From Candidatus Eiseniibacteriota bacterium (lineage in GTDB: Bacteria > Eisenbacteria > RBG-16-71-46 > JABDJR01): a DNA stretch of 64,000 bases. The DNA is taken from assembly GCA_963783375.1 (NCBI GenBank), contig CAWANH010000028.1, forward strand, positions 320,001 to 384,000. The letters are read 5' to 3'. Made by a program: the position numbers and the translations under genes. The notes under the pieces were generated by a model. That model was not told the DNA's origin. It searched no databases and worked only from the letters and a program-made list of their open reading frames with translations. This document shows positions 29,225-59,129 of this stretch, one piece after another. Each line of letters begins with the position of its first letter. The first letter of the stretch is position 1.

Positions 29225-29362
29225 CCTTAGTAATTACAGCTAGTTAAGACCCAGTGGATTTTTCTTGCCGGATTTGTCTACAGCTGTAGTAGTATCCGGG
29301 TGCGGGCCGCTCGGCCCGTCCCCTCGTCCGAAAACACCTGCCGATCCGAGCAGGAGGACAAC

Positions 29363-31057
29363 ATGCGATCCACCATCCATATCAAGCTGGTCGTGGGAGC
29401 CGTCCTGGCCGTGGCCGGGCTCCTCGTCGCTTACCCCTATCTTCGCGGCGAGCTCTTCCCCCCGTCCGCCGAAGCCTCGGACCGGGACCCGGCATGGCTG
29501 GGGGTGAACCTCCAGAACCTGACCCCCAGCCTGCGCGACGCGATCCACGTCGATCGCCGGGTTCGGGGAGCGCTGGTGACCAGCGTGACCGCGGACAGCC
29601 CGGCTGACCGGGCCGGCCTCCGCAGCGAGGACGTGATCACCGAGCTCGACGGACACCGGGTGGAATCGGTGAACGACGTGGTCTCGGCGGTGCGCGCGCT
29701 GGGGCCCGGAGAGAAGGCTCTGGTGGTGGTGAACCGGAACGGCTCGAGTCGCGGCCTCTCCGTCGAACTCGCCGGCCGGGGCGAACGGTGGATGGAATCG
29801 GGGGAAGCACCGCGCGGCTCGGACCGCGAGGTTCGCCGCTACTTCTCCGGCGACGACGCCAAGGGCCGGGACTGGAAGAAGCCGCGGGTCTACTTCGAAC
29901 GCGCCCCGCGCGCGGATGAGCCTGACTCCGGGGACCGCGAGGACGAAGACGCGCCGGAAGCCCCGTCCCACCGCTGGCATGCGCGGGGGGACGACGAGTA
30001 CGGGGAGGCCCCCGAGATCGTCTGGCACGACAAGGACGGGGGGGACCACGTTCTACGGTTCCGCGCCAAGGACGGGGGACACCGGGTGATCGTTCTCGGT
30101 GACGACGATGACGACGCCGTGAGCGTCCCCAAGGCCGACCGGGACCGCCGGGTGATCATCCTGGGGGACGACGATGACGACGCGCCGGAGGCCCCGCGGG
30201 CCCCCCGGGCCCCGCGAGCCGAAGGCCCGCCCCGGCCCCGGGTCCACGTGTTCCGCGGCGAGGGCGAACGGAGCGAGCGGGGTTTCCTGGGGGTCAGCAC
30301 CCTGGCGCTGAGCGATCAGCTGGCCGACTACTTCAAGGCCCCCCGGGATCGCGGGGTCCTGGTGACCGGGGTGGAGCACGACTCTCCCGCCGACCGGGCG
30401 GGGATCGAGGCGGGCGACGTCATCCTGTCGGTGGAGGACGACCCGATATCCGACCCCGGTGAGCTTCGCCGGGCGATCCGCGATCGCCGCCCCGAGGCCA
30501 CGGTGGAGATCGGGATCATCCGCCGGGGCGAGCGGCGCACGCTGCGGGCGACCCTCGACGAGGCCCCGGATTTCGGCTCCCTCGACCGGGAGGGGACCGG
30601 ACCCGGACGGTTCCGGGTGGAGATCCCCCGCATCCACCTCGAAGGACTCCGGAACCTGGGGATCCCGGAGCTGGAGAACTTCGAGCTGCCGGACATCGAC
30701 ATCCCCGACATCGAGATCGATGGGAGCGACTTCAATCAAGAGGACCTGGACGAGCTGCGCGACCAGCTGCGGGAGCAGGGCCACCAGCTCCGGGACCAGC
30801 TCCGGAAGATGGGGCGGGACATCGGCCGGGAGATGCGCGAGGACCACTCCACGCTTCAGGAACGGCGGGAAGCCCACCGGGCGGCCATGCGCGAGGCCAT
30901 GCGGGCGGCCGAAGGGGCGCTGCAGGACGCCGGGGAGACCCGCCACCGGGCGCTGGAACTCTCCCGTGAGGCCATGGAGCGCGCCCGCGAGGCCGCCCGC
31001 GAGGCCAAGGATGCCGATCGTCGAGCCCGGAGCCGCGGTTCCGCCGGGACCATCTGA
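29363..31057 (+). CDS. Membrane-anchored or exported protein with two PDZ domains and a C-terminal coiled coil
   Basis: AGGAGG RBS; WLGV...SPADRAGL..DVI and GFLGV...SPADRAGIEAGDVI; no protease domain. Confidence 0.85.
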   Translation: MRSTIHIKLVVGAVLAVAGLLVAYPYLRGELFPPSAEASDRDPAWLGVNLQNLTPSLRDAIHVDRRVRGALVTSVTADSPADRAGLRSEDVITELDGHRVESVNDVVSAVRALGPGEKALVVVNRNGSSRGLSVELAGRGERWMESGEAPRGSDREVRRYFSGDDAKGRDWKKPRVYFERAPRADEPDSGDREDEDAPEAPSHRWHARGDDEYGEAPEIVWHDKDGGDHVLRFRAKDGGHRVIVLGDDDDDAVSVPKADRDRRVIILGDDDDDAPEAPRAPRAPRAEGPPRPRVHVFRGEGERSERGFLGVSTLALSDQLADYFKAPRDRGVLVTGVEHDSPADRAGIEAGDVILSVEDDPISDPGELRRAIRDRRPEATVEIGIIRRGERRTLRATLDEAPDFGSLDREGTGPGRFRVEIPRIHLEGLRNLGIPELENFELPDIDIPDIEIDGSDFNQEDLDELRDQLREQGHQLRDQLRKMGRDIGREMREDHSTLQERREAHRAAMREAMRAAEGALQDAGETRHRALELSREAMERAREAAREAKDADRRARSRGSAGTI

Positions 31058-35053: not shown

Positions 35054-35604
35054 AATGTCCCCCAGAGATACACGACGGCGAAGATGAACACCCACACCGC
35101 GTCCACGAAGTGCCAGTAGACGGAGACCGCTCCCAGGGCGCCGTCCCACGGGCGGTCGTCCTTTCCGGCCCAGGTGAGGCCCAGGACGAGGGCGATGAGG
35201 ACGAGCCCCACCAGGACGTGGAGACCGTGGAACCCGGTGAGGGTGAAGAACGTGGTGCCGAAGAGATCGCGGCTGATGGTCACGTTCTCCCGGGCGAGGT
35301 GGAGGTACTCCGTTCCCTGTCCCACCAGGAACACGGCCCCGAAGGCCAGGGTGGCCAGGAGCCAGAAGAATCCCTCGCCGCGGTTCCGCTTCCGGAGGCT
35401 CGTTCCCGCCCGGTGCATGGTGGCGCTGCTCGCGAACAGGAACACCGAGAAGATCCCGGTCCTCACCGGATCGAGGACGGCGGCCGCGCCGGGTCCGTTT
35501 CCGCGGGTCGCGTGGTAGGTGACGTAGGCGAAGACGAGGAGGCCGAAGAACACCGCCTCCGAGGCCACGAACAGGATCACCCCCAGCTTGTTCTTCTCGG
35601 CCAC
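35050..35604 (-). CDS. ctaE: Cytochrome c oxidase subunit III
   Basis: ASEAVFF, FFTLTGFHGLHV and YWHFVDAVW. Confidence 0.94.
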   Translation of the reverse strand: MAEKNKLGVILFVASEAVFFGLLVFAYVTYHATRGNGPGAAAVLDPVRTGIFSVFLFASSATMHRAGTSLRKRNRGEGFFWLLATLAFGAVFLVGQGTEYLHLARENVTISRDLFGTTFFTLTGFHGLHVLVGLVLIALVLGLTWAGKDDRPWDGALGAVSVYWHFVDAVWVFIFAVVYLWGTL

Positions 35605-35608
35605 CGCC

Positions 35609-37241
35609 TCAGTCCTCCTTCTTCCCGCCGGAGTGGGCCAGGTCCCAGAGCGGCCGGCGGCCCCGGACCGGGGGCACGCGGTCGAAGTTGTGCTCGGGGG
35701 GCGGAGAGGTCGTTGCCCACTCCAGGCTCCAACCCTCCCAGGGATTGTCGCCGGCGGGCTCGCCTCGGCGGGCGCTCACCACGAGGTTGACGAGCATCAC
35801 CAGAACCGATCCCCCCAGAATGAACGCCCCCACCGTGGAGATCAGGTTCAGGATTCCCAGGTGGGGAAGGTCGGGATAGGTGAACACCCGGCGGGGCATC
35901 CCCAGGAGCCCGGCCAGGTGCTGGACGAAGAAGGTGGTGTTGAAACCGATCACGGTCAGCCAGAAGTGGACCTTTCCCCACTTCTCGTTCAGCCGGCGGC
36001 CGCTCATCTTGGGGAACCAGTAATAGACGCCGGCCATGAGGGCAAAGGCCGTCCCCCCGAACAGCACGTAGTGGAAGTGGGCCACCACGAAGTAGGTGTC
36101 GGTCAGCGCCCAGTCGATGGGGACCGCGGCGAACATCACCCCGCTGATCCCCCCCACCGTGAACTCGATCAGGAACGCGACCGCGAAGAGCATGGCGGTG
36201 GTGAACCGGATCGCCCCGCCCCACATGGTGGCGATCCAGTTGAAGATCTTGACCCCGGTGGGGATGGCGATGAGCATGCTCCCCACCGCGAAGACGTAGT
36301 AGATCGGAAACCCCAGCCCCACCGCGAACATGTGATGCACCCACACCCCGAAACTCAGGAAGCCGATGGCCACGGTGGAAATCGCCAGGAACTCGTAGCC
36401 GAAGATGGGTTTTCGTGAGAAGACGGGAATGACCTCGGAGATGATCCCGAACGCCGGGAGCACCATGATGTAGACCTCGGGGTGGCCGAAGATCCAGAAG
36501 TAGTGTTGCCAGAGGAGCGCCGAGCCTCCGGCGGTGACGTCGAAGAAGTGGGCCTGGAGAAGGCGGTCGATGAGAAGCATGACCAGGGCCGCATTGAGGG
36601 CGGGGAGGGCCAGGATGATGAGGAAGGAGTTCACCAGCACCATCCACACGAAGAGCGGAAGGCGGCGGACGGTCATACCGGGAACCCGGAGCGTCCAGAT
36701 GGTCACGATGAGGTTGATCCCCGAGGCCACCGTTCCCACCCCCACCCCGAGAAGCCCCAACCCCCAGTAGTCCAGCCCGGTCCCGAACGCGTAGGGCCTC
36801 TCGCTCAGCGGGGTGTAGCTGAACCACCCCGCATCGGGGGCGCCCCCGGCCAGGAAGCTGAAGTAGAGGAAGATTCCCCCGAAGAGAAGGATCCAGTAGC
36901 TCAGGGCGTTCAGCCGCGGGAAAGGCCATGTCCCGGGCCCCGATCATCAGGGGGACGAAGTAGGTGGCGAACCCCAGGAGGGCGGGCACCACCACCAGGA
37001 AGATCATGGTGGTGCCGTGCATGGTGAAGATCTGGTTGTAGGCCTCGGGAGAGAGGAAGTGCTCTCCGGGCCGCGCGAGCTGGATGCGGATGAGGAGGGC
37101 TTCGACCCCTCCGACCAGGAAGAAGAAGAGCGCCGTTCCCAGGTAGAGGATGCCGATCTGCTTGTGGTCGATGGAGGCGACCCAGCTCAGGAGGCCGGTG
37201 GGCCGCGAGTCCGCGGTGGCCGCGGCGGCGGACGCGCTCAT
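35609..37241 (-). CDS. ctaD: Cytochrome c oxidase subunit I (A1 type); +1 frameshift at about 36922
   Basis: DHKQIG, TMHGTTMIF, DMAFP/RLN junction with one extra base, GHPEVY, WVHH and HFH. Confidence 0.93.
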
Positions 37242-37287
37242 GACCGGACCTCCCCGGACGTTCCCGCCGGGGGAATCGCGCTCCACC

Positions 37288-38250: not shown

Positions 38251-38589
38251 CCTAAGCACTTCACACAATGCGGCGTCAAATCGGGGGAACCCGGCGGGCG
38301 CCTTCGAGAGCTACCGGGAGAGAGGCAGGGGGTATTCCGCACGGCGTCGTCCGGTCAGTGGGCGGTTCGGGATCGGGGGCCCTCGGGGGTCCCGGGACCG
38401 GGGAGGAAGCCGGGTCGAGCCGGCGCGCCCGGCGAGGGCCGGCTCGTGTGGTAGCATGTCCGCCGCCATGACTCCGGGATCCACATTCGCCCCTCACACG
38501 AGCCCCGCTTCGACGACTTCTATTCTGGACCGCACGCTCTCGCTCCATTGCCCTGCCCGGTTCACGGGGAGGGCCGCCGTAGGGCCGGA

Positions 38590-39141
38590 GTGAGCTCGGG
38601 GCCGCGGCGGGAGCCTGAGCTCGACTGGGCGACCGTGCAGGCATCCCTGCGCCGCCAGCTCGCCCGGCGGGCGGGAACCGGCGACCGGGAGTACCTTGAC
38701 GATCTGGTCCAGGAGGCGTCCATCCGGCTCCTCCGGGCGGTACGCCGGGGTCCGGTCGACCACGTGGAGGGTCTGGCCGTCACCATCGCCTATCGGACCT
38801 GGATCGACTTCATCCGGCGGCGGATGCGTTGCCGCAAGCTCTTCTCCGCCGGGGCGAAGACCGAAGCGGCGGTGGGCCCGGAGGCGTTCACCTGGGGCGA
38901 CCCGGCGGAGCGGTTGCGGTTCGTGGTTCTGGAACTCTTCGATCGCGAAGGTTCGACCGGATGCCTCGAACTGGCCCGGGCCTATTTCGCCGAGATGGAC
39001 TGGAAGTCGGTAGCCGCCTCGCTGGACCGGAGCCACGACGCGATCCGGAAAGCCTGGTCGCGGTGCGTGGACACGGTCCGCCGGATGGTGATGGAGGATC
39101 GGGCCCTCTCCCGACTGCTCGATCCGGGGGAGAGCACGTGA
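38590..39141 (+). CDS. Divergent ECF-type RNA polymerase sigma factor
   Basis: Region-2-like DDLVQEASIRLL...IAYRTWIDFIRR; region-4 HTH-like MDWKSVAASLDRSHDAIRKAWSRC; overlaps the anti-sigma start. Confidence 0.75.
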   Translation: MSSGPRREPELDWATVQASLRRQLARRAGTGDREYLDDLVQEASIRLLRAVRRGPVDHVEGLAVTIAYRTWIDFIRRRMRCRKLFSAGAKTEAAVGPEAFTWGDPAERLRFVVLELFDREGSTGCLELARAYFAEMDWKSVAASLDRSHDAIRKAWSRCVDTVRRMVMEDRALSRLLDPGEST

Positions 39142-39920
39142 TGGATCGGTTGGGCGAACACGCACGATTCCGGAGCCGGATGGCACTCGAGGAGGCCGGT
39201 CTCCTGACCGAGGCCCAGTCGGAGGCGTTCCGGGCCCATGCGGCCGGTTGCGCGTCCTGCCGTGAGATATGGGATGCCTATTCCGCGGAACCGGAGGTGC
39301 CCGCCGGAGAGACAACCGGCCACGTGCCCGCCGCCCTCCTCGCCCGCTGGGACGCCGGGGTGGACCTTCCGTCCCTCGAACGGGACCTCGTCGAGCACCA
39401 CCTGGCGTCCTGCGAAACCTGCCGCGAGGACCTGGCCCTCGTCCGGTCCCGGGCTCCCGAGTCCACCGGATACGTCCTGAAACCGGATCCGCGTTCCAGG
39501 CGTCGCGCCTGGCTCCAGGGGGCCGCGGTAGGAGCCCTCCTGGCTGCAGCCGGCATGGCCATCGTCCTTCGCCCCGGCCCCCCCCCTGAGGAGTCGGAGA
39601 CCATCCCCTGGGTCGTCCCCGGGACCACCCGGGGCGCGGTGGCCGCAGTGACCGTGCCCCCCGGGACCCGGCGCCTGTTGCTCGCGATCCCGGTGCCGGA
39701 ACCCGCCTCGACCGGATCCCTGCGCGTGGTGGTGACCGGACCCGGGGACAAGCGGCTGATCGATGCCTCGATCGACCCTGAGCGGATCGTCGACGCCACC
39801 CTCATGCTGATCCTGGCCTCTCCGGGATCCCTGGAGGCCGGAACCTATACCAGCACCGTGACCCCCGCCCGCGGGGAGCCCGTGCAGACCAGCTTCCGCC
39901 TCCGTATCTCCGGCTCCTAG
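39141..39920 (+). CDS. Anti-sigma factor with two zf-HC2 motifs, one TM helix and an extracytoplasmic beta domain
   Basis: HAAGCASC and HLASCETC; TM segment AWLQGAAVGALLAAAGMAIVL. Confidence 0.8.
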   Translation: MDRLGEHARFRSRMALEEAGLLTEAQSEAFRAHAAGCASCREIWDAYSAEPEVPAGETTGHVPAALLARWDAGVDLPSLERDLVEHHLASCETCREDLALVRSRAPESTGYVLKPDPRSRRRAWLQGAAVGALLAAAGMAIVLRPGPPPEESETIPWVVPGTTRGAVAAVTVPPGTRRLLLAIPVPEPASTGSLRVVVTGPGDKRLIDASIDPERIVDATLMLILASPGSLEAGTYTSTVTPARGEPVQTSFRLRISGS

Positions 39921-40037
39921 CCCGCCGTCACACCGTCCCGCGTCCGTCGACCCTCCCTCCAACCAGTGTCGCACTCATTCATCTCGATCCGGGCCGCGTG
40001 GTGACGTGGGGAAGAGGTGAGCCCACGGGAGGTCATC

Positions 40038-43000
40038 ATGTTCTTGTCCCGCAATAACTTACGGTTCCCCGGACTGCTCGGACTCGGCGCCTTGGCCCTG
40101 CTGGCGGCGGCGGCGACCTGGATCCTCCCCGCAGGAGCCCAGGAGACCTCGCTCACCCTCGACTTCTCCTCGACCTCATTTCTCGATCCGGGAAGCACGA
40201 CCGCGGATTGGGACACGGTCTCGGGAACGCTCCACCTTCCCGCCTTCACCGCCCACGAGCTGGGGTCGGTGTCCGGGGCGAACCTGGGACGCGTCGCCCT
40301 GGCCGGAGATGACGTCTACATGTCCTCCGGAACCCTGGGGCTGTCGGTGGTCGACGTGTCGAATCCGGCCGCTCCGTCCCTGATCTATGCCGAGGGAGGC
40401 GGGCATCTCGTGAACGACGTCGACGTCTACGGGGATCTCCTGTTCGCCGCGGGACGGACCGAAGGGCTCCACCTCTACGACGTCACCAACCCCGCCGCCC
40501 CCACCTACCTGGGGGCCAATAGCTCCTACAACGACATGCGGGGAGTGGCCGCGCGCGGGGCCCTGCTCTATCTGGCCGACGGGGTGAACGGGGTCCACAT
40601 TCTCAACCTGGCCGGCACGCTCTTCGAGATCGGCACCCTCGACACCCCCGGGGTCGCCAGGGACGTCGACGCGGCGGGAAACGTGGCCGTGGTGGCCGAC
40701 GATACCTACCTCCGCGTCATCGACGTCACCGATCCGTCCTCGCCGGTGGAAATCTCCAGCTTCGCCGCGACGGAGGCCTCCTCGGTGCAGCTGGACTATC
40801 CCCTGGTCTATCTCGGCACCCTGACCGGGATGGTGATCCTCGACATCTCCGACCCGGCGAACCCGGTCCAGGTCGGGAGCTTTCCGGCCCCGGACCTGGT
40901 CTCGATCTCCGTCGACCGCGACTACGCCGCGGTCACCACCCTCGGGGAACTCTACCTGGTCGACGTCCGCGATCCGGCCCTGCCGGCGCAGCAATGGATG
41001 CAGCCGTCCGGGGACGAGAGCGGCGCCGCGGTGATCAAGGCGGGGCGCATCTACTGGGCGGACGGCGACACCTTCCGGCTGGTGGAATCCGCCCTCCCCC
41101 TCTCGATGCAGTACACCCGCTCTCCGGGAATCACCCGCAACTGCTTCGGGGCGGCGGTGGAGGGCAACGTCCTTTACCTCTACCAGGACCGGGATGGATT
41201 CGAGTCCGTGGTGACGTACGACGTCACCGACGCCATGAACCCCGTGGAATCGGGATACCTCCACCTCGACCTTGGACTCGGCAGCTACGGAAGCGATCTT
41301 GCGGTAAGTGGCGGTTTCGTGTACCTGGCCGATCGGGACGGCATCAAGGTCATCGATGCGCGGGACCCGACGGCGCCGGTGCTGGTAAACACCGTTCTGG
41401 GTACCGAGGACTTCTACCGGATCCAGACCCAGGGAAGCTACCTGGTGGGGGCGACCTCGACCGATATCCATGTCCTCGCCCTCTACGATCCGGCAAATCC
41501 CTCCTACGGATACACGACCGGCTTCGGCGCCCACTCGATCCGTCTCCAGGGCTCCTATCTCTACTATACTTCGGGAACCACTTTCGGAGTCTACGATCTC
41601 ATCACCACGAGTCCCGTGGGATCCCTGTCCCTCCCCTCGTCGGCCGATATCCTGGCCGTCGACGGGAACCAGGTCTACGTGACCTCCGGCAGCAGCATCT
41701 ACGCCATAAGCGTGGCGAGTCCAGCGAGTCCGGTGCTACTCAACGCGGGTACGCCGCCGATCTATGTGCCGCGCACCGGCGTCGTCGTCGGGGATCGGCT
41801 CGCCGTCCTGGACGACTGGCACGTTGCCCTGTTCGACATTTCGGATCCGACGCTCCTCACGGAGGTGGATCGGATCGACCTTCCCAGTTTCTCCCCGTAC
41901 GTTCCCCTGGGCAAGACGTTGGTTCGGGTGGGTGACTTTCTCCATGCCGGCCGCAGCCACACCGCCCCGGGTGGAAGCCACACCGAGGATCTGTACGACA
42001 TCCTACCCGTCATGAGCCATCGGGTCGACTACACCCGGAACGAGGCGAGGACGGTCAGCCTCGCGGCGGGCCACGAGGGAGCCGCGGCATGGCGGATCCT
42101 TCCCGCCGCCCGCACCGATTCGGTCTCCATGTACCTGGGCGATGTCAGCGGTGACACCGGCATCTGGCCACTGTCCGCCGTCGGAAGCGTCGCCGGCATG
42201 ACTTTGTACCCCGCATCCTCGCTGGTCGACCCGGTGGTGGACGAGGTCACCTTCGAATGGGCCTATGAAGAGCCCGCGATCACCTCCATCGCCGACACGC
42301 CCAACGACCAGGGGAAGCAGGTCCGGCTCTCCTGGATGAAGAGCGCCAACGATCTGTATTCGGCCCCGGATCCGGTCACCGAGTACTCCGTGTTCCGGCG
42401 GATCGAGGTGGGCTACGCCCCCGGGATGCTGTCCACCGCCTCACCGCCGGGAACCTGGGACTTCGTCGCCTCGGTGCCGGCGGACGGGCTCGGCACCGAC
42501 GGTCACTACTCGGTGATCGTTCCCACCCTGGCCGACTCCACCCAGAGCGCCGGAATGCACTGGACCACCTATTTCGTGCGGGGTCGGACGGCGACCCGGG
42601 GAACGGTATACGAATCGCCCCCGACAGCGGCTACTCGGTCGACAACCTGGCCCCCTCGGTGCCGGCAGGGCTCCTGGCCTCCTCCGCCGGGGGCGGGTTC
42701 GATCTGTCCTGGGATCCCGACCCCGAGCCGGATGTGCGGTACTACAACGTCTACCGGGGCGCATCCGAGGGGTTCGTGGCCGACGATCTCTCAAGGATCG
42801 GGGCCACCGCGGGCAACAGCTTCAGCGACCCGGCTCCCGGCGGGGAGACGTACGACCAGGTGGCGGCGGTCGACTTCAGCGGAAACGAGGGCCTCCCCGC
42901 GACCACCCACGGCGCCGTCGGGGTGGGCCGTCCGCAGATCACCAGCCGCTTCCACCTCTATCCGGCGAGCCCCAACCCGTTCCGGGCGGATTCGCGGATC

Positions 43001-43225
43001 GACTACGAGGTTCCCCCGGGCGGGAGCGACCTCTCCCTGGCCGTATACGACGTCCAGGGGCGCCGGGTGCGCACCCTTCAGGACGGCTGGCGCCCGGAAG
43101 GGATCGCCGAACTCCACTGGGACGGCCGGGACGACGGCGGCCGCCCGGTGCCCGCCGGGGTCTACTTCGTGAAGCTCGTCGCCCCCGGTTTCGACGCGGT
43201 TTCCCGCCTGGTCCGGGTGCGCTGA
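40038..43225 (+). CDS. Secreted LVIVD-repeat (beta-propeller) protein with a C-terminal FlgD-Ig domain; frameshift at about 42620
   Basis: Signal peptide; repeats GLSVVDVSNPAAP, LRVIDVTDPSSP and MVILDISDPANP; C-terminal ASPNPF...YDVQGRRVR...WDGRD..G..V.AGVYF. Confidence 0.85.
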
Positions 43226-43276
43226 GCCCGGACCGAGCGCATCGAGCAGGGGGTCTGCCCGGATCCTCCGGCTCGG

Positions 43277-43308
43277 CCCCCGGCCACCCCGCGTGGCCGG
43301 GGGTTTTT
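43277..43308 (+). terminator. Rho-independent terminator
   Basis: 11-bp stem CCCCCGGCCAC/GTGGCCGGGGG, 5-nt loop, then TTTTT. Confidence 0.8.
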
Positions 43309-43380
43309 CCATTTCCGGTGATGTTTGGTAACCTCCCCTCCTATCGATTTCCCGATTCTCCGAGGTCACGCATGTATGGT

Positions 43381-46300
43381 ATGCACCCCATTCGGATACT
43401 CCCGCTCGCCCTGGCCCTGATCGCCCTTCCGGTTCCGGTCTGCCTGGCCCAGACCCCGCCCGCCGCGGATTCCACCCGGGCGTCCGGGTACCCGGCCACG
43501 CCTTCCAAGGTCAAGGAGGTCATGGACCTGACCGACGGAAAGCACTTCGCCGAAGCGGAGTCCCTGGGCTGGGCCCTGGTGCAGGACTACGAGGTGAACA
43601 AGGGGCCGGAGTCCTACGAGGTGGCTCGCGCCCTGGAGGCCTACCTCGAATCGATCGCACGGCAACGAAAGGTCGACGACCGGGCGATCGGGCTCGCCGA
43701 TCGGGCCATCCGGATCACCCGCGGCGCCTTTGGCCCGGAACACCCGGAGGTCGCCCGGGCTCTTGGAGTGAAATCCAGCCTGCTGAGCCACTCGGGAGAT
43801 CTCGAGGGAGCGATCGAGCTGCGGCAGCAGGAGCTGGCGCTCCTCCGGAAGGACCCGGGTCCCGACAAGGGGATTCTCGCCTCCGCCGCCTCCAACGCCG
43901 CGGTCTACTACGCGATGCTGGCCCGGTACGAGGAAGCAACCCCGTACTTTCTCGAGGCGCTCGATGCCTATCGGGACGCGTACGGCGAGGAATACCTCGA
44001 TACGGCGGGGGCGATCTACAATTTGGGGAATCTCTACAACATACGCGGCGAAGACGACGAAGCGCAGAAGTACTATCTAGAGGCGCTCGGCATCTACGAG
44101 AAGATCGTGGAGGCCGATCATCCCCGGATCCAGATGACCCTGACCGCCCTGGGAGACATCGAAAGCCGCCGGGGCGACTACATGGCGGCCCGCGAGTACC
44201 ATCGCAGATGCCTGGAACTCGCCGAGCAACGGGAAGGTCCGGAAAGCCTCGGCCTGATCCTGGAATCCGCGGTCTCGGGAACGTGGAAACCTACCTCGGA
44301 AACAGCGAACGGGCCCTGGAGTTGCACCTGCGAGCATTGCGCATCTCGGAGGCGCATCGGAGCCCCGGAGACTACGATCTCTGGGCTGAACTCTTCGACG
44401 TCGGGTACGACTACTGGTCCCTGGGGCGGTACGAGGAAGCCCGGCCTACCTGGCCCGGGCGGTCGCGGTGGTGAGCGCCCGGGCACCGGATCATGACGAA
44501 CTGGTGGCTCCTCTGACCGCCCTGGGCAAGGTGGAGCGGGCCGAGGGTCATCTCAAGGCGGCCGCGGACACCCTGACCCGGGCTCTGGCCATCGCCGTGG
44601 CGACGAAGGGCCCTACCAACGATCTGACCGGCGATGTGCACATCGAGCTGTCGGCCGTGTACGAGGAGAGGGGCGATTACGAGTCGGCGGCGCGGCACGC
44701 CGAGGGGGTGATCGCGGCCTACGAGTCCGGATGGAGGGACCGTCAGGGCTACGCCCGGGCTCTCCTGCAGCGATCCCGGATCCGGCTCAAGAGGGGGATC
44801 TCTCCGGAGCCTTTGCCGATGCGCGGAAGGGGGAAGCCCTGGCGCTGGAACAGTTCCGGGCGACCTACCGGAGCCTGGCGGAGATGGAGGCGCTCCGGTT
44901 CTCGGCCTTCCGGGGGAACGGCATTCCGCTTATGATCTCCGCGCTGGGCATGGAGGAGGCCCCGCCGGAGACCACGATCGCCCAGGCCTGGGATGCCGTG
45001 ATCCGGTCCCGCGGCATCCTCCTGGAGGAGATCGCGGCCCGCCGCCGTCTGATCCGGGATCTGGACGACCCCGATCTGGAGATCCTGGCCCGGGCCGCGC
45101 TGGAGGCGAGATCCCGCCTGGCCAATCTCTATCTGAGGGGTCCCGAGAACGAGGACCAGGCGCGGTTCCGGGAACGGCTCGAGGCCGCGGCCCGCGGCAA
45201 GGAAGAGGCCGAGGCGGCGCTGGCCGAGGCCAGCGCATCCTTCCGCGAGGAAACCCGGCCCGGGGGACTCGACGCGGTCCGTGACCGCATTCCGGATGAC
45301 GCGGCGCTCGTTGCCTACGTCCGGTATCCACGAGGCAGCAGGATGCAGGATGCGGTTCCGACCTACGCCGTTTTCGGAATCTCCGGGCCTTCGGGAGATC
45401 CCTGGTACGTGGATCTGGGTCCGGCGGCGGCGATCGATGTGCGCGTGCGGGAATGGCGGGAGGCGGTCGCGGCGAGCGGCATTCCCGCTGGGCCGCTGAC
45501 CCGGGAGGCGGAGGCGTGGGTGCGCTCAGACGGCGCCGCCCTGCGGGAAGCCGTGTGGATCCATCGCCGGCCACCTGGCCTGTGCCCGGCGCGTGCCGTG
45601 GTCCCGACGGGACTCTCGCCTGGTCAACCCGGCCGCGCCCCGGACCCATCGGGAGGGTACCTAGTGGAGTTGGACCCGCTCTCCATCAGCTTCCGTCGGA
45701 GCGGTCGCTGCTCCGCGAGGCGCCGGCACCTTCCGGGAAACCGACCCTGCTCGCCCTCGGAGGACCGTGTTCGACCTGGAGGTCGTCCCGCGACCCGGCC
45801 GCGGACCTGGTCGCCGCCGGGAGGCCCAACATTCCCAGCGGGGAGCCGTCTCGACTGCGACGGTACCTGGAGCTGGAGTTCGAGCGTCTTCCCGAGGCCG
45901 AGAAGGAATCCCGGGATGTGGCAAAGCTGTGGAGGGGTGGGAACCGGGGAGCCGCCGACGTCCTGACCGGGGCCGAGGCCACCGAGTCCGCCTTCAAGGC
46001 GGCGGCGCCGCGGCACTCCGTCCTCCATCTGGCCACGCACGGCTACTTCCTGGATCCGGATTGTGCCCGGACCGCCAGCGATGCGCCGGCCGGGGGAGAG
46101 CGCTGGGGCACCGCGGCCGGGGATCCCCTGCTCCTCTCCGGGCTGGCCCTGGCTGGCGCGAACCGGCACACCTCGGCGACCGGAGGTGATGACGGGATCC
46201 TGAGCGCCGAGGAGATCGTGACCTCGACCTCCGGGGCGTGATCTGGGCTGTGCTTTCCGCCTGCGACACCGGCCGCGGAGCCTGGGTGCCCGGCGAGGGG

Positions 46301-46550
46301 GTCTCCGGACTCGAGCGGGCCTTCCAGACGCTGGTGCCCGGACGGTGATCATGAGCCTGTGGCCGGTCGACGACCGCACTACCCGGGAGTGGATGGAGAC
46401 GCTCTATCGCGCCTGCTGGCAGAACGGCCTGGAAACCGCCGAAGCGGTGCGCGAGGTGGCCGCTCCCTGCTCCGGGAACGGCGCGAACGGAACGCCAGCA
46501 CTTCGCCGATGGGCTGGGGAGCCTGCATCGCCACCGGGGACTGGCGTTAG
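43381..46550 (+). CDS. Exported TPR-repeat CHAT-domain (caspase-like) protease; multiple frameshifts (sequencing errors or pseudogene)
   Basis: Signal peptide; TPR repeats (GPEHPEVA, YNLGNLY); catalytic HLATHG (His at 46038) and LSACDTG (Cys at 46262); MSLWPVDD; WGACIATGDWR stop. Confidence 0.85.
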
Positions 46551-46672: not shown

Positions 46673-49600
46673 CTAGCCCGTCTGCCGCGAGACGGCGCAC
46701 GGGCTGAATGCCGAGAGAGCTGGGCTGATGAGGGGCGGTGAGCGTGTAACCGCGACCCGGGTGAACGGGCTCTCGCCGTCCACCACCAGGCGCACCAGGT
46801 AGATGCCGCTGGCGAGGGCGCGGCAGGTATGGTCCTTGCCGTCCCAGGCGATCTCCTGGCGTCCGGCATCGCGGTTGTCGCCGGTGAGAGTGCGAACCCT
46901 GCGTCCGCGGACGTCGAAGACGTCCAGGGTCACCGGGCCCCGGTTCTTGTGATCGAAGGCGATCACCGTCCGGGAGGTGAACGGGTTGGGGTAGGCGGCC
47001 ATCGGGGGCGCGGTGACCCCCGGGGTCACGGGCACGCCGGTGACCTCGGTGAAGATGAGGTTGTAGTCGGCCGACAGGGCGAGGGAAGGCTCCTGGGCCT
47101 TCCACACCGCGATGCAGTAGAGGCCCGCGGTGGGGATCTCGATGGCGACCTGCTCGTCCTCCCCGGCCACCTCGATCCAGGCCGCTCCGTCGGGGAGGGC
47201 ATGGATGCGGCTCATCACCCCCGTGTTGGGCGGGTGGATGGAGAGCCCGAGGTCCGCCGCGGACAGGTTCTCCAGGTGGATGATGTAGTACCCGGCGTCC
47301 AGATCGACCTCGTGCAGGTTGAGCATCTCGTTGGCCGCCAGGTTGAAGGTTCCATAGGAGCCCGACGGGTTGCTCGCCAGGTAGGTGGAGGACACCACCT
47401 CGGCGGTGAAGTCCTGGGTTCGGTACCCGCCGCTCACCCCCACGTCAAAGGGCCCGGGATTCCAGTAGGTGAAATCGATCAGATTGAAGTCGATCTCCCC
47501 CGTGCCGAAATCGGACGTGGTGAGGGCCTCGCCGAACGAGAGATCCACGTCGTCGAGGATCCCGTGGAGCCGAAGCGTGACGTCGGTGGAATCGCCCGGC
47601 ATGACGGCCACGCCGCCCCAGTAGCCGTCCGCCCCGCCGGGATCGAACGCGGGGGTCCGGTAGCCGTCGGCGTTGGACCAGATCACGGTGGGGTCGCTCA
47701 GTCAGATGCTCCCAGCTCCCCAGCGGATCCCCGGGTACGGGAAGCGCGGTGGTCGGCCCCATGGCCAGGGTCTGGGGAGTCCAGGCCCACTGCCGGGCGG
47801 TATCGTTGTTGGTCTCGGAGATCTCCACGACGTCGTCGGGCCAGTCGATCCGCATGGCGGCGGTGTGCCGGCCGCCCCGCACGTAGAACGGACCGATGTC
47901 GTTGCCGTAGATCGAGCCGTAGGCGGGAAGGTCTCCCCCGAGGAGAGCGGGTAGACGTTCACCCCGTCCAGGTCGAGATCGATGGCGAACGACCCGGTGG
48001 CCGTCGTGGGGCTGGCGTTGTAGATGATCGCGTTGTAGTAGCTGGACGACGTCCATCCGGGAAGGCTGGTGGGATCGGGAACGCTGGACGGCGTCCCGTC
48101 GGCCGCCGGCCGGACCACCAGCGGTCCGTCCCATCCGGCCAGGGCGCCGGGCACCAGGTCGGGCGGGGTGCGGTCGATGAGGATCTTGTAGCCGTGGGGA
48201 TCGGCCGGGCCGTCCTTGGGATCGCGGTAGACGATCAGGCAGGAATAGGTCTCGTGGCTCTCGTTGACGTCGAGGCGGGCGATTCCCTCGCGGTTGCTCA
48301 CCGCGGTGGCGGTGTAGTCGTCCATGCCTCCGGTGGTGAAGGGGACATCGAGCCAGGAGATGTGGAAGGTGGCATCGGAGGAGGTCGTGTCCTGGACCAC
48401 GAAGCTGACCGCCCCCGTGTCCGCCCCGGCGATGAACACCTCGTGCAGGCTCATCCACTCGTTGGCGCCCAGGGTGAAGGTCGAGGGCACCCCGTAGGTC
48501 TCCAGCGTGCTCGTGACGTGGCGAACCTCGTAGCCGGCCTGGGCCGGGGTATCGGTGGCCTGGACGATGCCCACGTCCCAGGTGGCGTCTCCGGTCAGGT
48601 TCCGGTTGGCGATCACCGCGTCCAGGCAGTCGGCGGGGCGAGTGGAGGACGCCGCGGTCACCGCGAATCCGTTCCCCGGACCGGTGGAGGACGTATGGAG
48701 CCGGGCGTCGTAGTCCGCGTCATGGGAGTTGGCGACCAGGGTCACCGCGTTCCACCACTGGGCCCCGCTCGCCGTGGCCTGCATGCGGACCCCGTCGCAG
48801 TTGAACCAGGAGGTGGCGATGGATCCGTCGAAGCCCCCCATGCGGGCGGGCGGGGCCGCCCGGTAGGTGGACCCGAGGACGGGCAGCACGTAGGGCGACC
48901 AGATCCACTGGGTGGCCCAGTAGTTGTCGTTCTCGTTGGATTCCGCCACCAGGCCGGTGAAATCGTTGAAGGCGCCGAAGGTGTGGCGGCCCCCGCGCAC
49001 GGTGATCGGCCCCAGGTTCAGGGCTTCGTAGGTCGCCCCCACCCCGAGGGAGGGGATGGACGCCGCGTGGTCGACCGGGTTCAGGGGGTTGTAGAAGCCG
49101 ATACCGTCGGCCTGGACCCAGAGCCCGGTGGAGGGAGCGATGGCTCCCCCCGTGTTTCCTACCGAGGCGTTCCACCAGGTGGCCGCCGCGTCCCCGGTGA
49201 GGCTCGCGGGGAACGGGACGTTGCCGCTCGCGGCATCCGCCGCGGCGCGGGGGACGACGCGGTACGCCCAGCCCGTCTGCAGCACGTGGGTCAGGTTGGC
49301 CGGCCCCGGGGGGGCGATGATGATCGGCCCCAGGGTGTCGTAGCTGCCGTCCCAGTTGCCCGCCGCGTCGCCGGACCGGATGGTGATGTAGTAGGTCCCC
49401 GCGGGAAGGATCGGGGTGGTGTAGGAGCCCGCGTCCCATACCTCGGGAGTGTTGTCCGGAAGCGCGGCGGAGGCGCCCCAGCGGATGGAGAACTGCGAGG
49501 CGGTCTCGCAGTCGTCCGCGGGTCGGGTCCAGGTCAGATCCACCGTGTTGTCGGTGGAAGCCACGCCCACCGTGTGGCTGGGAGAAGCAAGGTCGGTCAC

Positions 49601-50734
49601 CGTGGACGGCGGCGTGCTGTCGATGATGTACCCGTTGTTGAGGGCGGTGTGGGAAAGTTCCGAGCAGAGTTCCGGATACGTGGCCCGGAACACGTCGAAA
49701 AACTCGCCCGGGGTGGACATGGTGTTGCCGGCGAAGAGCCCCAGGATGGGATCCGGCCCCATGCTCAGGTCGTCCCAACCGGGGCCGCCGAAGATCGTGC
49801 CGTGCTCGTTGGTGGCGTCGGAGATGTCCCGGAGTACCGCCGCGAACATCCCGGGGGTGTTCCAGGCCGAAAACGAGTATCCGGGACAGGCCTGAAGGTT
49901 CTCGATGTCCTCTTCGTAGAGGGGAGTGTAGCCGTATCGCGAGGGGAACTCCCCGACGATCTGGTCGGCTGCCCAGGCCGCGAAGCCGATGTACCAGGCG
50001 ATGACATCGCTCTCGGGACACCACAGGCAGTAGCCGCCCCGCGCACTGTATTCCCCCACTTGGGTAGACGCCTCGTCGCAGACCCCGTTGTTCCCATCCA
50101 CGGACCACGTTGTTGCATAGGCATTGATCCATTCCTCGGCCAGGATCCGGGCGATGACGCGCTCGTTCCAGGTGTCCGCCAAGGCGAGGTACTTGCCCCA
50201 GACGGGAGAGTACGCGGAGTACCCCGCGCTCCGAGCCCAGCCCCAGTCGCCGTAGTAGGTGGGCAGGGGGTAGCCGTGCTCTTCGAACCATCGCCGGGTC
50301 CGGCTCGCGACGGTCAAGATATGGAGGTACTGGCTGGCATTGAAGTCGGTGGGATGAAACGTTCCGTAGTCAATCGTGCCTCCGGCAAAGTTGGGGGTGA
50401 TCCCGGTCTGGATACCAAGGGGCGAGGGGCCTACCTTGAGCCGGATGTCGGGATCCGGGTCGCAGAAGAAATCCGGGGAGTACACGACGGTGAAGTCGAA
50501 GTAGCCGTTCTCGTCGGTGACATCGCCTCCCTGGTACGAGAAGGGGCAGAGATCGACGCCGTAGGCCTCCTCCCAGATACCGACAGAGATACCGTCGGCA
50601 CCCACCAGTTCCCCCCGGGGGTTTTCGTAGACCACCCGCCCCACGGCGTGGATGGTGGTGTCGGCCGCGGCCGGCCGGGCGCCGAGCAGACCGACGGCCA
50701 CGAGAAGGAGGACCGATCCGAGTGCGCGTTTCAT
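46673..50734 (-). CDS. Large secreted multidomain protein: degenerate metallopeptidase-like N-terminus, two CARDB-like modules and FlgD-Ig; frameshifts at about 47950 and 47700
   Basis: GGAGG RBS; signal peptide; duplicated VRGGRHT...E(S/I)xExxN...QWxWxP; AYPNPF...FDVRGRRVR...WDGKD...SGIYLVRL. The natural end may be near 46742. Confidence 0.8.
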
Positions 50735-50743
50735 GACGACCTC

Positions 50744-51223
50744 CTAGCGCTGCCGCTCGGGGCGGGGACGGTTCCCGGGGGCCAGGACCTTGGGGCCGGC
50801 CTCCACCCGCGCCAGCGTCTCCTCGAGCTGGGCCACGGCCTCGCGGTTGTTCTCCTGACGGGCCCAGCGGAGCTGGATCTCGAGCAGCCCCGCCTCGGTC
50901 CCGGACTTGAGGTCGTGGATCTCGCGCATGAGGCGCATGGCCTCGGCGTTGTCGGTGGCGGCGCGGTACCGGGCGGTCAGTTCCTTTACCTGCTGGTCCC
51001 GTCCCTCGAGGAAATCCCGGATCTCCAGGAGCCGCGGGGACAACTCCTCCCGCGGAACGGCCATCAACCCCGGATGAACCGGGGCCGGCTCGTCGACGGC
51101 CTGGGGAACCAGGCCGGGCGCGGCCGGGTTCTGGGCGGCCGTGGCCCCGAGAGCAAGAGCGCCAAGGAGCAACGGGATCAGAACGAAGCGGGACGGGTGC
51201 GTGCGGATGGGGTTCGGGGCCAT
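50744..51223 (-). CDS. Small exported helical (coiled-coil) protein
   Basis: GAGGAGG RBS; signal peptide; ends 9 bp before the large secreted gene starts. Confidence 0.7.
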   Translation of the reverse strand: MAPNPIRTHPSRFVLIPLLLGALALGATAAQNPAAPGLVPQAVDEPAPVHPGLMAVPREELSPRLLEIRDFLEGRDQQVKELTARYRAATDNAEAMRLMREIHDLKSGTEAGLLEIQLRWARQENNREAVAQLEETLARVEAGPKVLAPGNRPRPERQR

Positions 51224-51530
51224 GACACCTCCTCGTGGATTGGGCCTTCGAGGGGTAGGGTCGATTCGGAGGTGGGAATGTGACGTCCCCAGGCCCCGTC
51301 GCAGCACCGGGCCGAGCCGCGACATCCCGGAAGCGATCCAAGTTATTCATTATCAACCAGCTCGCCGGACGCTGACTTCGCACCCAGTTGCCTGATCGCC
51401 GGCGGAGGCGTATCACGGACAGCCGGCGGCCGGACCGAATCCCCGAAGTCCACCTCGGCCATGCCGCCGAACGGTATGAAGTGTGAGGTCCGCCCGTATG
51501 CGACGGGTATTCCGCGACGGGCGGAATCGG

Positions 51531-57325: not shown

Positions 57326-57420
57326 GTTCCATCCCGCAGCCCGAGTGCCGGCGGCGCGCCCGGGGGAACACGGCCGGCGCGAGAGCCTGACCCCGACGCG
57401 CACGGGCCTGACCTCGGCGC

Positions 57421-58520
57421 GCGGGTCTTTATTGCGAACATGGCTTCCCCGGGGAAGCACGCCGGAGCTTTATTGCGAACCTGGTGTACCCGGGTGCAAG
57501 TCGGAGGGTCAAGAGGCGAATACCCGGGTACCCACCGCCGGCGCGCGGGCCTTTATTGCGAACATTGCTTCCCCGGGGAAGCACGCCGGAGCTTTATCGC
57601 GAACCTGGTGTACCCGGGTGCAACCCAGCGGTTCGCCATGGACCCGGGACCCCGGCGCGCACCAGGCCTTATTGCGAACATTGCTTCCCCGGGGAAGCAC
57701 GCCGGAGCTTTATTGCGAACCTGGTGTACCCGGGTGCAACCCAGGGGGTGGAGAGGCGAATACCCGGGTACCCGCCGCCGGCGCGCGGGTCTTTATTGCG
57801 AACATTGCTTCCCCGGGGAAGCACGCCGGAGCTTTATTGCGAACCTGGTGTACCCGGGTGCAACCCAGCGGTTCGCCATGGACCCGGGACCCCGGCGCGC
57901 ACCAGGCCTTATTGCGAACATTGCTTCCCCGGGGAAGCACGCCGGAGCTTTATCGCGAACCTGGTGTACCCGGGTGCAACCCAGGGGGTGGAGAGGCGAA
58001 TACCCGGGTACCCGCCGCCGGCGTGCAGGCCTTTATTGCGAACATTGCTTCCCCGGGGAAGCACGCCGGAGCTTTATTGCGAACCTGGTGTACCCGGGTG
58101 CAACCCAGCGGTTCGCCATGGACCCGGGACCCTAGCGCGTGCGGGGGGTCGCCCCGGAATTCACCCGGGTGTGCGCGCGGTTGGGTGCGCGGGGCCGAGC
58201 CCGAAGTCTGCCCGGAGCTGCCAACGCCACCGCGAGCCTTTTTGTTGCGAACCCTTCATTGCGAACATTGCTTCCCCGGGGAAGCACGGCCGGAGCTTTA
58301 TCGCGAACCTGGTGTACCCGGGTGCAACCCAGGGGGTGGAGAGGCGAATACCCGGGTACCCACCGCCGGCACGCGGGTCTTTATTGCGAACATTGCTTCC
58401 CCGGGGAAGCACGCCGGAGCTTTATCGCGAACCTGGTGTACCCGGGTGCAACCCGGCGGATCGCCATGGGCCCGGGACCCCGGCCCGCGCGGGGGGTCGC
58501 CCCGGAATTCACCCGGGTGT
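57421..58520. repeat. Hierarchical tandem array of 240-bp units made of 124- and 116-bp subunits; 8 copies of a 75-bp palindromic core
   Basis: Core CTTTATTGCGAACATTGCTTCCCCGGGGAAGCACGCCGGAGCTTTATYGCGAACCTGGTGTACCCGGGTGCAA; palindrome starts at 57442, 57566, 57682, 57806, 57922, 58046, 58269 and 58394. Confidence 0.95.
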
Positions 58521-58619: not shown

Positions 58620-58758
58620 GGCCGGCCTTCACCCCCGCCGCCGACTTCACCCGGACTCCAGGCCATCGGGCCGGCCTTCACCCCCGCCGCCGACTTCACC
58701 CGGACTCCAGGCCAGCGGGCCGGCCTTCACCCCCGCCGCCGACTTCACCCGGACTCCA
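58620..58758. repeat. 49-bp tandem repeat, about 3 copies
   Basis: GCCGGCCTTCACCCCCGCCGCCGACTTCACCCGGACTCCA at 58621, 58670 and 58719. Confidence 0.9.
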
Positions 58759-59129
58759 CCACGGGCCGGCGGAACCCCCACCTCGACTTCACCCGGACCC
58801 CGGGCCGGCGGCCCGATTCCTGGCGCCACCACGGCCCCGGGAAACGCCGCCGCCGCCCCTCGACGCCCGCCCCCCCCGGCTACCCCGTTCTCCCACGCCC
58901 AACACCCGGCCCCTCAGTCCCCACCCCCGACCCCCCGGGCCCCTGGTCGCGCCCCCCCCCACGCCCCCGCCTGCCCCCGCCGGTCTCAAAAGAGCCTCAA
59001 TCTCTTGCGCCATAATATTTTATCCGCACTCACCCCGGCGGACCGTGTTGCCCCCAACCCCTCCGAGCCGGTATGATCTTCTGTCTTCGCGTCGGCCGCC
59101 ACCCTCGGCCCTCGGAACCCAATATCATC

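What the first reader, a model, noticed from the sequence alone, without database searches (positions are those of the whole stretch)
38590..46550. ECF sigma, anti-sigma, secreted beta-propeller and exported TPR-CHAT protease: candidate caspase-like trans-envelope signalling system
Seen: four co-oriented genes. They encode a divergent ECF sigma overlapping a TM anti-sigma with an outside domain, a large FlgD-tagged LVIVD protein, and a signal-peptide TPR-CHAT protein with an intact His/Cys dyad (HLATHG, LSACDTG). Known: in type III-E CRISPR systems the TPR-CHAT protease Csx29 cleaves Csx30, which binds the sigma factor CASP-sigma, and many anti-sigmas are removed by site-1 proteolysis. Inference: a CRISPR-independent analogue in which ligand binding to the TPRs activates a periplasmic CHAT protease. 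That protease would cut the anti-sigma and release sigma to express the neighbouring secreted proteins.
Basis: partly seen in the sequence, partly recalled or inferred. Interest (0 to 1): 0.72.

Follow-up and report, generated by a model that had tools for sequence, protein, structure and literature searches.

The report
Exported caspase-like protease sigma switch
A gene-activating sigma factor, its membrane-bound inhibitor and a separately exported caspase-like protease sit together here and in many related bacteria, and the protease likely switches on nearby secreted-protein genes by cutting the inhibitor at a conserved Arg-Gly site, a step that is predicted, not shown.

Summary
The four genes are real. 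The frameshifts (about 19 missing bases in the protease gene, one in the LVIVD gene) are very likely assembly errors, because short-read contigs of close strains carry the extra bases. Among 56 homologous sigma loci, 55 have the anti-sigma next door. 22 of the 29 loci with at least 6 kb of flank on each side also have a TPR-CHAT gene, usually with a signal peptide. A promoter motif GTCAC-N16-CGAC, learned from the homologues, has only three strong intergenic hits in the genome. All three lie here: before the sigma, before the LVIVD gene and before the 51223 operon, but not before CHAT. The anti-sigma's outer linker carries a conserved Arg-Gly motif, a candidate cut site. Against: the complex prediction gave no answer, the separase Arg-binding Asp is absent, and both preset motif tests missed significance. 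The LVIVD gene is variable cargo. The closest known system is Myxococcus DdvS/DdvA, where the protease is fused to the anti-sigma; Craspase is more distant. I found no paper on this split form, but this scan noted the same kind of system, including the Arg-Gly idea, on other DNA. New variant; cleavage about 50% likely.

The parts
38493..38517 (+). Predicted ECF promoter P1 (CTCACA-N15-CGAC) before the sigma gene; autoregulation inferred
   Evidence: PWM 17.5 bits
38590..39141 (+). Divergent ECF-type sigma factor, 183 aa
   Evidence: PF04542 E 3.7e-9; TIGR02937 below cut-off; 50 homologues
39141..39920 (+). Single-pass anti-sigma, 259 aa: two zf-HC2 units, TM helix (about 39507-39569), Pro-rich linker, Ig-like outer domain
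   Evidence: PF13490 two stretches; family alignment; model of a homologue's outer part: low-confidence linker then beta-sandwich
39630..39635 (+). Arg164-Gly165 in the anti-sigma linker; candidate cleavage site (inferred)
   Evidence: R in 46 of 58 and G in 41 of 58 aligned outer parts
39927..39951 (+). Predicted ECF promoter P2 before the LVIVD gene
   Evidence: 19.0 bits
40038..43225 (+). Secreted LVIVD-repeat protein with C-terminal FlgD-Ig tag; one assembly break near 42615; variable cargo
   Evidence: PF08309, PF13860; inserted C in contigs of 3 of 4 runs; LVIVD in 1 of 29 well-flanked homologous loci
43275..43310 (+). Intrinsic-terminator-like hairpin with T-run between LVIVD and CHAT
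43372..46550 (+). Signal-peptide TPR-CHAT protease, about 1065 aa; His codon 46038-46040, Cys codon 46262-46264; frameshifted in this assembly
   Evidence: TPR_12, PF12770; read-through with X at breaks; breaks filled in close strains
46673..50734 (-). Large secreted protein (about 1350 aa, one break near 47700): N-terminal domain likely a metalloprotease-like fold lacking HExxH, CARDB, FlgD tag; cargo
   Evidence: 55% and 53% identical to one unbroken 1352-aa ORF in L021; CARDB/FlgD; atlas lead Mycolysin_M in 14% of members; no HExxH in 3 of 3 aligned
50744..51223 (-). Small secreted 159-aa protein, first gene after P3; cargo
   Evidence: homologues in L019 and L021, each behind the same promoter motif
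51260..51284 (-). Predicted ECF promoter P3 before the 51223 operon
   Evidence: 17.3 bits

Best explanation
This is a split DdvS/DdvA-like switch: a membrane anti-sigma likely holds the ECF sigma inactive, and the separately exported TPR-CHAT protease likely acts as the site-1 protease, cutting the anti-sigma's outer linker, most plausibly at Arg164-Gly165. An unknown envelope signal would first activate CHAT through its TPRs. The cut would remove the Ig-like cap so that RseP could finish the job. The freed sigma would then read GTCAC-N16-CGAC promoters and express itself, the anti-sigma, the LVIVD protein and the 51223 operon. Shown: gene anatomy, conserved linkage, conserved dyad, promoter motif and its placement, conserved Arg-Gly, RseP in the genome. 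Inferred: export, sigma sequestration, signal sensing, cleavage and its site, the RseP step.
For: Anti-sigma adjacent in 55 of 56 homologous sigma loci; CHAT present in 33 of 56, and in 22 of 29 loci with at least 6 kb on both sides. 35 of 59 CHAT loci lie within 7 kb of a sigma in five genomes (at most 5.1 expected); for one 6.45-Mb contig, 10 of 15 against a permutation maximum of 8 in 20000. In this genome 4 of 5 CHAT loci sit beside a sigma with an anti-sigma or kinase partner. His and Cys are invariant in 27 of 27 aligned linked CHATs. The fold matches Csx29, DdvA and separase. About 22 of 33 linked CHAT ORFs show an N-terminal hydrophobic signal-like segment (judged by eye). GTCA-N17-CGAC lies upstream of 43 of 79 sigma genes against 0.5 expected. 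Only 3 intergenic genome hits reach 16 bits, all in this locus. Arg in the linker in 46 of 58 anti-sigmas; in 77 further family members, Arg-Gly in the linker of 50 of the 75 with a called TM, against 10 of 75 in the Ig domain (these were found with a profile that contains the motif). In other anti-sigma families from five held-out genomes, strict xRG in 11 of 22 CHAT-linked against 1 of 22 unlinked (p 0.0015; secondary test). CHAT's own disordered loop has an aligned Arg in 22 of 26. RseP is present. In DdvA, removing TPR-CHAT exposes the remainder to RseP (PMC11506125, section 9).
Against: No cleavage or binding was observed. Both preset motif tests missed significance: 9 of 19 against 5 of 23, p 0.11, and 15 of 22 against 8 of 22, p 0.07. 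The separase Asp that binds the P1 Arg (D2151, replaced by K670 in Csx29 according to PMC9729208) maps eight residues after the conserved Trp. That position is Asp in 0 of 26 of these CHATs (Arg 13, Ser 5), so Arg specificity has no known structural basis here. 7 of 29 well-flanked sigma/anti-sigma loci have no CHAT nearby, and some of these keep the Arg. Sigma and CHAT distances correlate weakly (Mantel r 0.13, p 0.09; anti-sigma with CHAT r 0.35), and related genomes are not independent. Even in DdvA, CHAT autoproteolysis was not detected and the H862A and C907A variants behaved like wild type under the conditions tested.
Confidence: 0.5

Rival explanations
1. CHAT is a sensor or cap rather than the cutter. 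It binds the anti-sigma's Arg-Gly linker or Ig domain and shields or presents it, and a general protease makes the site-1 cut.
For: No CHAT self-cleavage was seen in DdvA, and the bulky TPR-CHAT blocks RseP there. The separase-type S1 Asp is missing. A conserved Arg-Gly could be a docking motif for the TPRs.
Against: The dyad is invariant in 27 of 27 linked CHATs, which argues for retained catalysis.
Confidence: 0.2
2. CHAT is an output or maturation protease of the regulon. It processes itself or the secreted cargo and clusters with the sigma because it is co-expressed.
For: In many homologous loci CHAT directly follows sigma and anti-sigma on the same strand and could be co-transcribed. CHAT has its own Arg-containing loop. 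The cargo proteins are secreted.
Against: In this window CHAT has no motif hit and lies behind a terminator-like hairpin. No intergenic motif hit of 14 bits or more in the homologous loci directly precedes a gene labelled CHAT. The cargo changes from locus to locus while the CHAT/anti-sigma pairing persists across different anti-sigma and kinase families.
Confidence: 0.22
3. CHAT here is a decayed pseudogene or a chance neighbour of an ordinary sigma/anti-sigma pair.
For: About 19 missing bases in 3.2 kb, against 0 in the sigma/anti-sigma pair and 1 in LVIVD. CHAT genes are common in this phylum (158 of 206 genomes). The contigs used are from close strains, not this strain's own reads.
Against: All breaks inside the ORF are missing bases, mostly a C next to other C's. 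Near-identical contigs also carry the extra base at 44444 (X2, X3) and 42615 (X2). There are no premature stops. Neighbouring genes show similar breaks. The linkage is at least 7 times above chance.
Confidence: 0.05

Closest known systems
DdvS/DdvA of Myxococcus xanthus (PMC11506125, PMC6061681; PDB 8ROT)
   Same: ECF sigma; single-pass anti-sigma with a cytoplasmic zinc domain; extracytoplasmic TPR-CHAT with His/Cys dyad (best PDB sequence hit for the CHAT profile, E 6.6e-10); flexible linker as proposed cut site; RseP downstream.
   Different: Here CHAT is a separate signal-peptide protein, and the anti-sigma has two zf-HC2 units and only a small Ig-like outer domain. The predicted regulon is secreted proteins, not CBASS/CRISPR. 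The paper found fused DdvA-like proteins only in Myxococcota and one Comamonas.
Type III-E Craspase: Csx29, Csx30, CASP-sigma/RpoE (PMC10028731 search listing; PMC9729208 passages)
   Same: TPR-CHAT fold (top Foldseek hits); protease genetically tied to a sigma and its inhibitor.
   Different: Cytoplasmic and activated by Cas7-11-bound RNA. No RAMP gene in this genome; the protease here has a signal peptide and the inhibitor is a membrane zf-HC2 protein.
ECF54 (Casas-Pastor 2021, PMC7826278 supplement passages)
   Same: An ECF group with TPR-CHAT genes nearby (0.71 per ECF), suggested there to take part in regulation or response.
   Different: Actinobacteria only, no anti-sigma, promoter GTATCAG/CTCC. 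The -35 element here resembles ECF41/103/250/288 (TGTCAC), but the -10 differs.
Site-1/site-2 regulated intramembrane proteolysis (DegS/RseP on RseA; recalled)
   Same: Proposed logic: an outer cut, then RseP, then sigma release.
   Different: The site-1 enzyme would be a clan CD cysteine protease, for which this role has not been shown in the papers I read.

Membership tests
DdvS/DdvA | ECF sigma next to a single-pass anti-sigma with a cytoplasmic zinc-binding domain | tested here: met
DdvS/DdvA | TPR-CHAT fused as the anti-sigma's periplasmic domain | tested here: not met
   anti-sigma is 259 aa and ends at 39920; CHAT is a separate gene with a signal peptide; family members are about 240-400 aa
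DdvS/DdvA | Extracytoplasmic CHAT with His/Cys dyad | tested here: met
   dyad invariant in 27 of 27; signal peptide judged from sequence only
DdvS/DdvA | Controls a CBASS/CRISPR defence island | tested here: not met
   the three promoter hits precede sigma and secreted proteins; no RAMP; CBASS genes were not searched genome-wide
DdvS/DdvA | RseP-dependent degradation after loss of the outer part | not testable with these tools
   an RseP gene is present; its action on this protein needs an experiment
Type III-E Craspase | Cas7-11/RAMP effector activates the protease | tested here: not met
   PF03787: 0 matches in the genome, 97% complete
Type III-E Craspase | Cytoplasmic TPR-CHAT with a soluble Csx30 substrate | tested here: not met
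   signal peptide on CHAT; partner is a TM zf-HC2 protein
ECF54 | Actinobacterial, no anti-sigma, GTATCAG/CTCC promoter | tested here: not met
   anti-sigma in 55 of 56 loci; motif GTCACA/CGAC; definition
CHAT/separase proteases (clan CD) | CHAT domain and fold with His-Cys dyad | tested here: met
   PF12770; model of homologue L019, pLDDT 85.9, hits Csx29, DdvA and separase
Separase-type Arg-specific proteases | Asp that binds the P1 Arg (D2151/D2070) | tested here: not met
   equivalent position (Trp+8, through K670 of Csx29) is Asp in 0 of 26; the mapping is by sequence alignment, not superposition
Site-1 protease of an anti-sigma | Signal-dependent cleavage of the anti-sigma's outer part | not testable with these tools
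   needs biochemistry or a reporter

The most novel reading that the evidence does not exclude
Exported caspase-like CHAT proteases are a widespread, undescribed class of dedicated site-1 proteases. They read a hydrophobic-Arg-Gly motif through a non-separase pocket, both in their own regulatory loop and in the linkers of several unrelated anti-sigma families. Some genomes in this phylum then run many parallel protease-gated sigma switches, each with a small local regulon of secreted proteins.
Probability: 0.35. Interest if true: 0.82.

Novelty: new variant of a known kind. Interest (0 to 1): 0.62.

Why it matters
Whether a CHAT protease can act as the site-1 enzyme for an anti-sigma is open even for DdvA, where no trigger is known and enzyme and substrate are one chain. 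The split form separates them. This locus also supplies a candidate cut site and a precise promoter for a reporter, so the idea can be tested with ordinary mutants. It would also give a function to the most common context of TPR-CHAT genes in a poorly studied phylum (158 of 206 genomes have CHAT; about 60% of CHAT loci sit by a sigma in five genomes tested).

Tried and rejected
(1) Complex prediction of the L019 CHAT (551 aa) with its anti-sigma outer part: no answer, score 0.10 against a mark of 0.32; it counts neither for nor against. (2) I first took the invariant Asp of SLWPVDD for separase's Arg-binding Asp. The K670 mapping puts that residue four positions further on, where Asp is absent, so I rejected this. 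(3) Co-variation of Arg-Gly with CHAT linkage inside the family is inconclusive: RG in 22 of 34 linked against 13 of 29 unlinked, and many of the unlinked contigs are short. (4) The preset motif tests were not significant. One search had a partner-calling fault, fixed. Controls there were picked as zf-HC2 hits far from CHAT rather than through sigma hits as planned, and one control row is duplicated. Rows left out: linked 7 without TM, 5 kinases, 2 long; controls 3 without TM, 2 without partner, 1 short tail. (5) FlgD-tagged cargo is only mildly enriched: 17 of 29 loci against a 37% background in this genome. (6) The plain pattern count in the window (2 hits, 1.1 expected) is not significant alone; the support comes from position and from the PWM scan. 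Spacer-shifted controls gave 3-15 total hits against 5 for the true spacer, so total hit number is no evidence; only the intergenic placement at this locus is. (7) The first scan for sigma relatives with a single sequence gave one real locus, and most metagenome contigs were too short to judge (only 2 of 29 well flanked). (8) The FlgD, LVIVD and TPR seeds were in the wrong frame; FlgD and LVIVD were redone. (9) The regex count of the CHAT loop was unreliable and was replaced by the aligned-column count. (10) No sigma-70 housekeeping promoter was found in the region.
Full report
Observation. Translation and Pfam scans confirm four + strand genes: a 183-aa sigma (Sigma70_r2, no region-4 match returned), a 259-aa anti-sigma with two zf-HC2 units and one hydrophobic helix, a LVIVD protein with a FlgD tail, and a TPR-CHAT protein with a signal-like N-terminus. 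The His and Cys motifs lie in different frames. The genome is 97% complete. One sigma homologue from a same-class genome is named Candidatus Eisenbacteria by NCBI, so the phylum is inferred to be Eisenbacteria.

Frameshifts. Short-read contigs from six public runs of close strains were laid on the region (6 of the 14 runs listed). They carry one extra base at 42615 (LVIVD) and at 14 places in CHAT, and 90 instead of 85 letters at 45596-45682. The break at 44258 is listed at that exact place in one run only. One 4.4-kb contig spans the LVIVD tail and the whole CHAT gene. With N at these sites the gene reads as 1065 aa without a stop. All breaks inside the ORF are missing bases, and the large gene downstream is unbroken in L021. 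Assembly error is far more likely than decay, although these are not the strain's own reads.

Linkage. A profile of 47 sigma sequences matched 39 of 206 genomes in the phylum, with 57 places including this one; 0 of 7 other genomes of the same family have it. All 56 other places were fetched. 55 have the anti-sigma directly downstream; the miss ends at a contig edge. 33 have a CHAT in the fetched stretch. Of 29 with at least 6 kb on both sides, 22 have CHAT (18 within 4 kb), 1 has LVIVD and 17 have some FlgD-tagged gene, against a 37% background in this genome. CHAT order and strand vary. More widely, 158 of 206 genomes have CHAT. In five genomes, 35 of 59 CHAT loci lie within 7 kb of a sigma, against at most 5.1 expected (I merged fragments and dropped the two weakest CHAT hits). 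In five more genomes, 36 of 49 CHAT regions contained a sigma, one of them more than 7 kb away. In this genome 4 of 5 CHAT loci have a sigma with an anti-sigma or a Ser/Thr kinase beside them. Related genomes are not independent, but the partners belong to several families.

Promoter and regulon. Word counting upstream of 79 sigma genes found GTCA-N17-CGAC in 43, against 0.5 expected. A matrix was trained on 48 of 78 upstream regions, without the window but including one near-identical strain. On contigs of 20 kb or more it gave 6 genome hits of at least 16 bits. The 3 intergenic ones are at window 38490 (sigma), 39924 (LVIVD) and 51287 on the minus strand. None precedes CHAT, which follows a terminator-like hairpin. 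The minus-strand operon encodes a 159-aa secreted protein and a roughly 1350-aa secreted CARDB/FlgD protein. It recurs, with the motif, in L019 and L021, the two loci whose CHATs score highest against this one. In other loci the motif precedes varied, often signal-peptide-bearing genes. So the unit extends to 51284, and its cargo is exchangeable.

Candidate cut site. Outside the membrane the anti-sigma family is very divergent (19% mean column identity), yet it keeps an Arg in 46 of 58 sequences, followed by Gly in 41. In a model of the L019 homologue this lies in a low-confidence linker before an Ig-like sandwich. CHAT has an aligned Arg in 22 of 26 sequences in a loop with pLDDT under 50. 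Tests on other anti-sigma families were mixed. The preset rules gave 9 of 19 against 5 of 23 (p 0.11) and 15 of 22 against 8 of 22 (p 0.07). A stricter secondary rule gave 11 of 22 against 1 of 22 (p 0.0015). The separase Asp that binds a P1 Arg (PMC10317155 and PMC9729208, passages) is not conserved here. The Arg-Gly site is therefore a good lead, not a result.

Mechanism. The most likely reading (0.5) is site-1 cleavage of the anti-sigma by the exported CHAT, then RseP (present), then sigma release and expression of the local regulon. Rivals: CHAT as an output or maturation protease (0.22), as a non-cutting sensor or cap (0.2), or as a pseudogene or chance neighbour (0.05). The signal is unknown.

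Known systems. Searches of the held library were: CHAT domain + ECF sigma + anti-sigma (3 papers); TPR-CHAT + sigma factor + signal peptide (0); CHAT + sigma + gene neighborhood + caspase (2); CHAT with zf-HC2/DUF4384/DUF928 (1); CHAT protease/site-1/anti-sigma/periplasmic since 2022 (22 found, 20 listed); Eisenbacteria + sigma factor (3, unrelated). None of the listed papers describes a separate exported CHAT with a membrane anti-sigma; most subscription papers are not searched. PMC11506125 (abstract, introduction, sections 8 and 9, passages; supplements not read) describes fused DdvA, proposes CHAT autoproteolysis as the site-1 step and did not detect it. PMC6061681 (passages) first suggested it. 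The ECF classification supplement (PMC7826278, passages; the file is cut in storage, so later groups may be missing) notes CHAT genes only for ECF54. PMC10028731 and 10.1101/2024.10.24.620036 were seen as listings, and 10.1101/2023.06.23.546230 as passages. The locus fails the defining features of DdvA (fusion), Craspase (no RAMP) and ECF54, but likely works like DdvA.

Earlier notes of this scan. Eight unchecked notes on other genomes describe sigma/anti-sigma/CHAT trios, one of them with an Arg-Gly site. I had recorded the DdvA comparison and the Arg-Gly motif before reading them. They are not independent evidence.

Verdict. A real, conserved, CRISPR-independent module and a new variant of a known kind; interest 0.62.

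Noticed in passing
G000:C28:1441900-1447900: Second CHAT locus: TPR-CHAT, a radical-SAM-like ORF (label judged by eye from a CxxxCxxC motif), a very divergent sigma missed by PF04542, and a TM anti-sigma with VRG in its outer part.
   Followed up: partly
G000:C29:1518999-1524626: Sigma + membrane Ser/Thr kinase-like partner + signal-peptide TPR-CHAT. The same kinase-type trio recurs in several other genomes, so CHAT may also gate phosphorylation-activated sigmas.
   Followed up: partly
G000:C1:162300-167233 and G000:C28:1212504-1217119: CHAT divergent from a long sigma and a TPR anti-sigma (FRG motif); another CHAT without a sigma but preceded by a secreted TPR protein that carries LRG.
   Followed up: partly
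window 49505-50734 (-), L021, L019: The N-terminal domain of the large cargo protein resembles mycolysin-type metalloproteases (atlas lead) but lacks HExxH in all three homologues: a possible secreted pseudo-protease.
   Followed up: partly
L087: One homologous locus has nine intergenic copies of the promoter motif within about 15 kb, mostly before signal-peptide genes: a larger regulon.
   Followed up: no
window 57415-58139 and 58620-58806: Tandem arrays upstream of the ORF at 59073: period about 124/240 (5.8/3 copies, up to 96% match) and period 49 (3.9 copies).
   Followed up: no
window 35577-37286 (-): The cytochrome c oxidase subunit I-like gene appears split between two frames, consistent with the same assembly errors (judged by eye).
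   Followed up: no
P0077: An anti-sigma of this family with an extra N-terminal region that looks GAF-like (by eye), ahead of the zinc unit.
   Followed up: no
window 29300-31057 (+): Membrane-anchored protein with two PDZ domains and no protease domain match.
   Followed up: no
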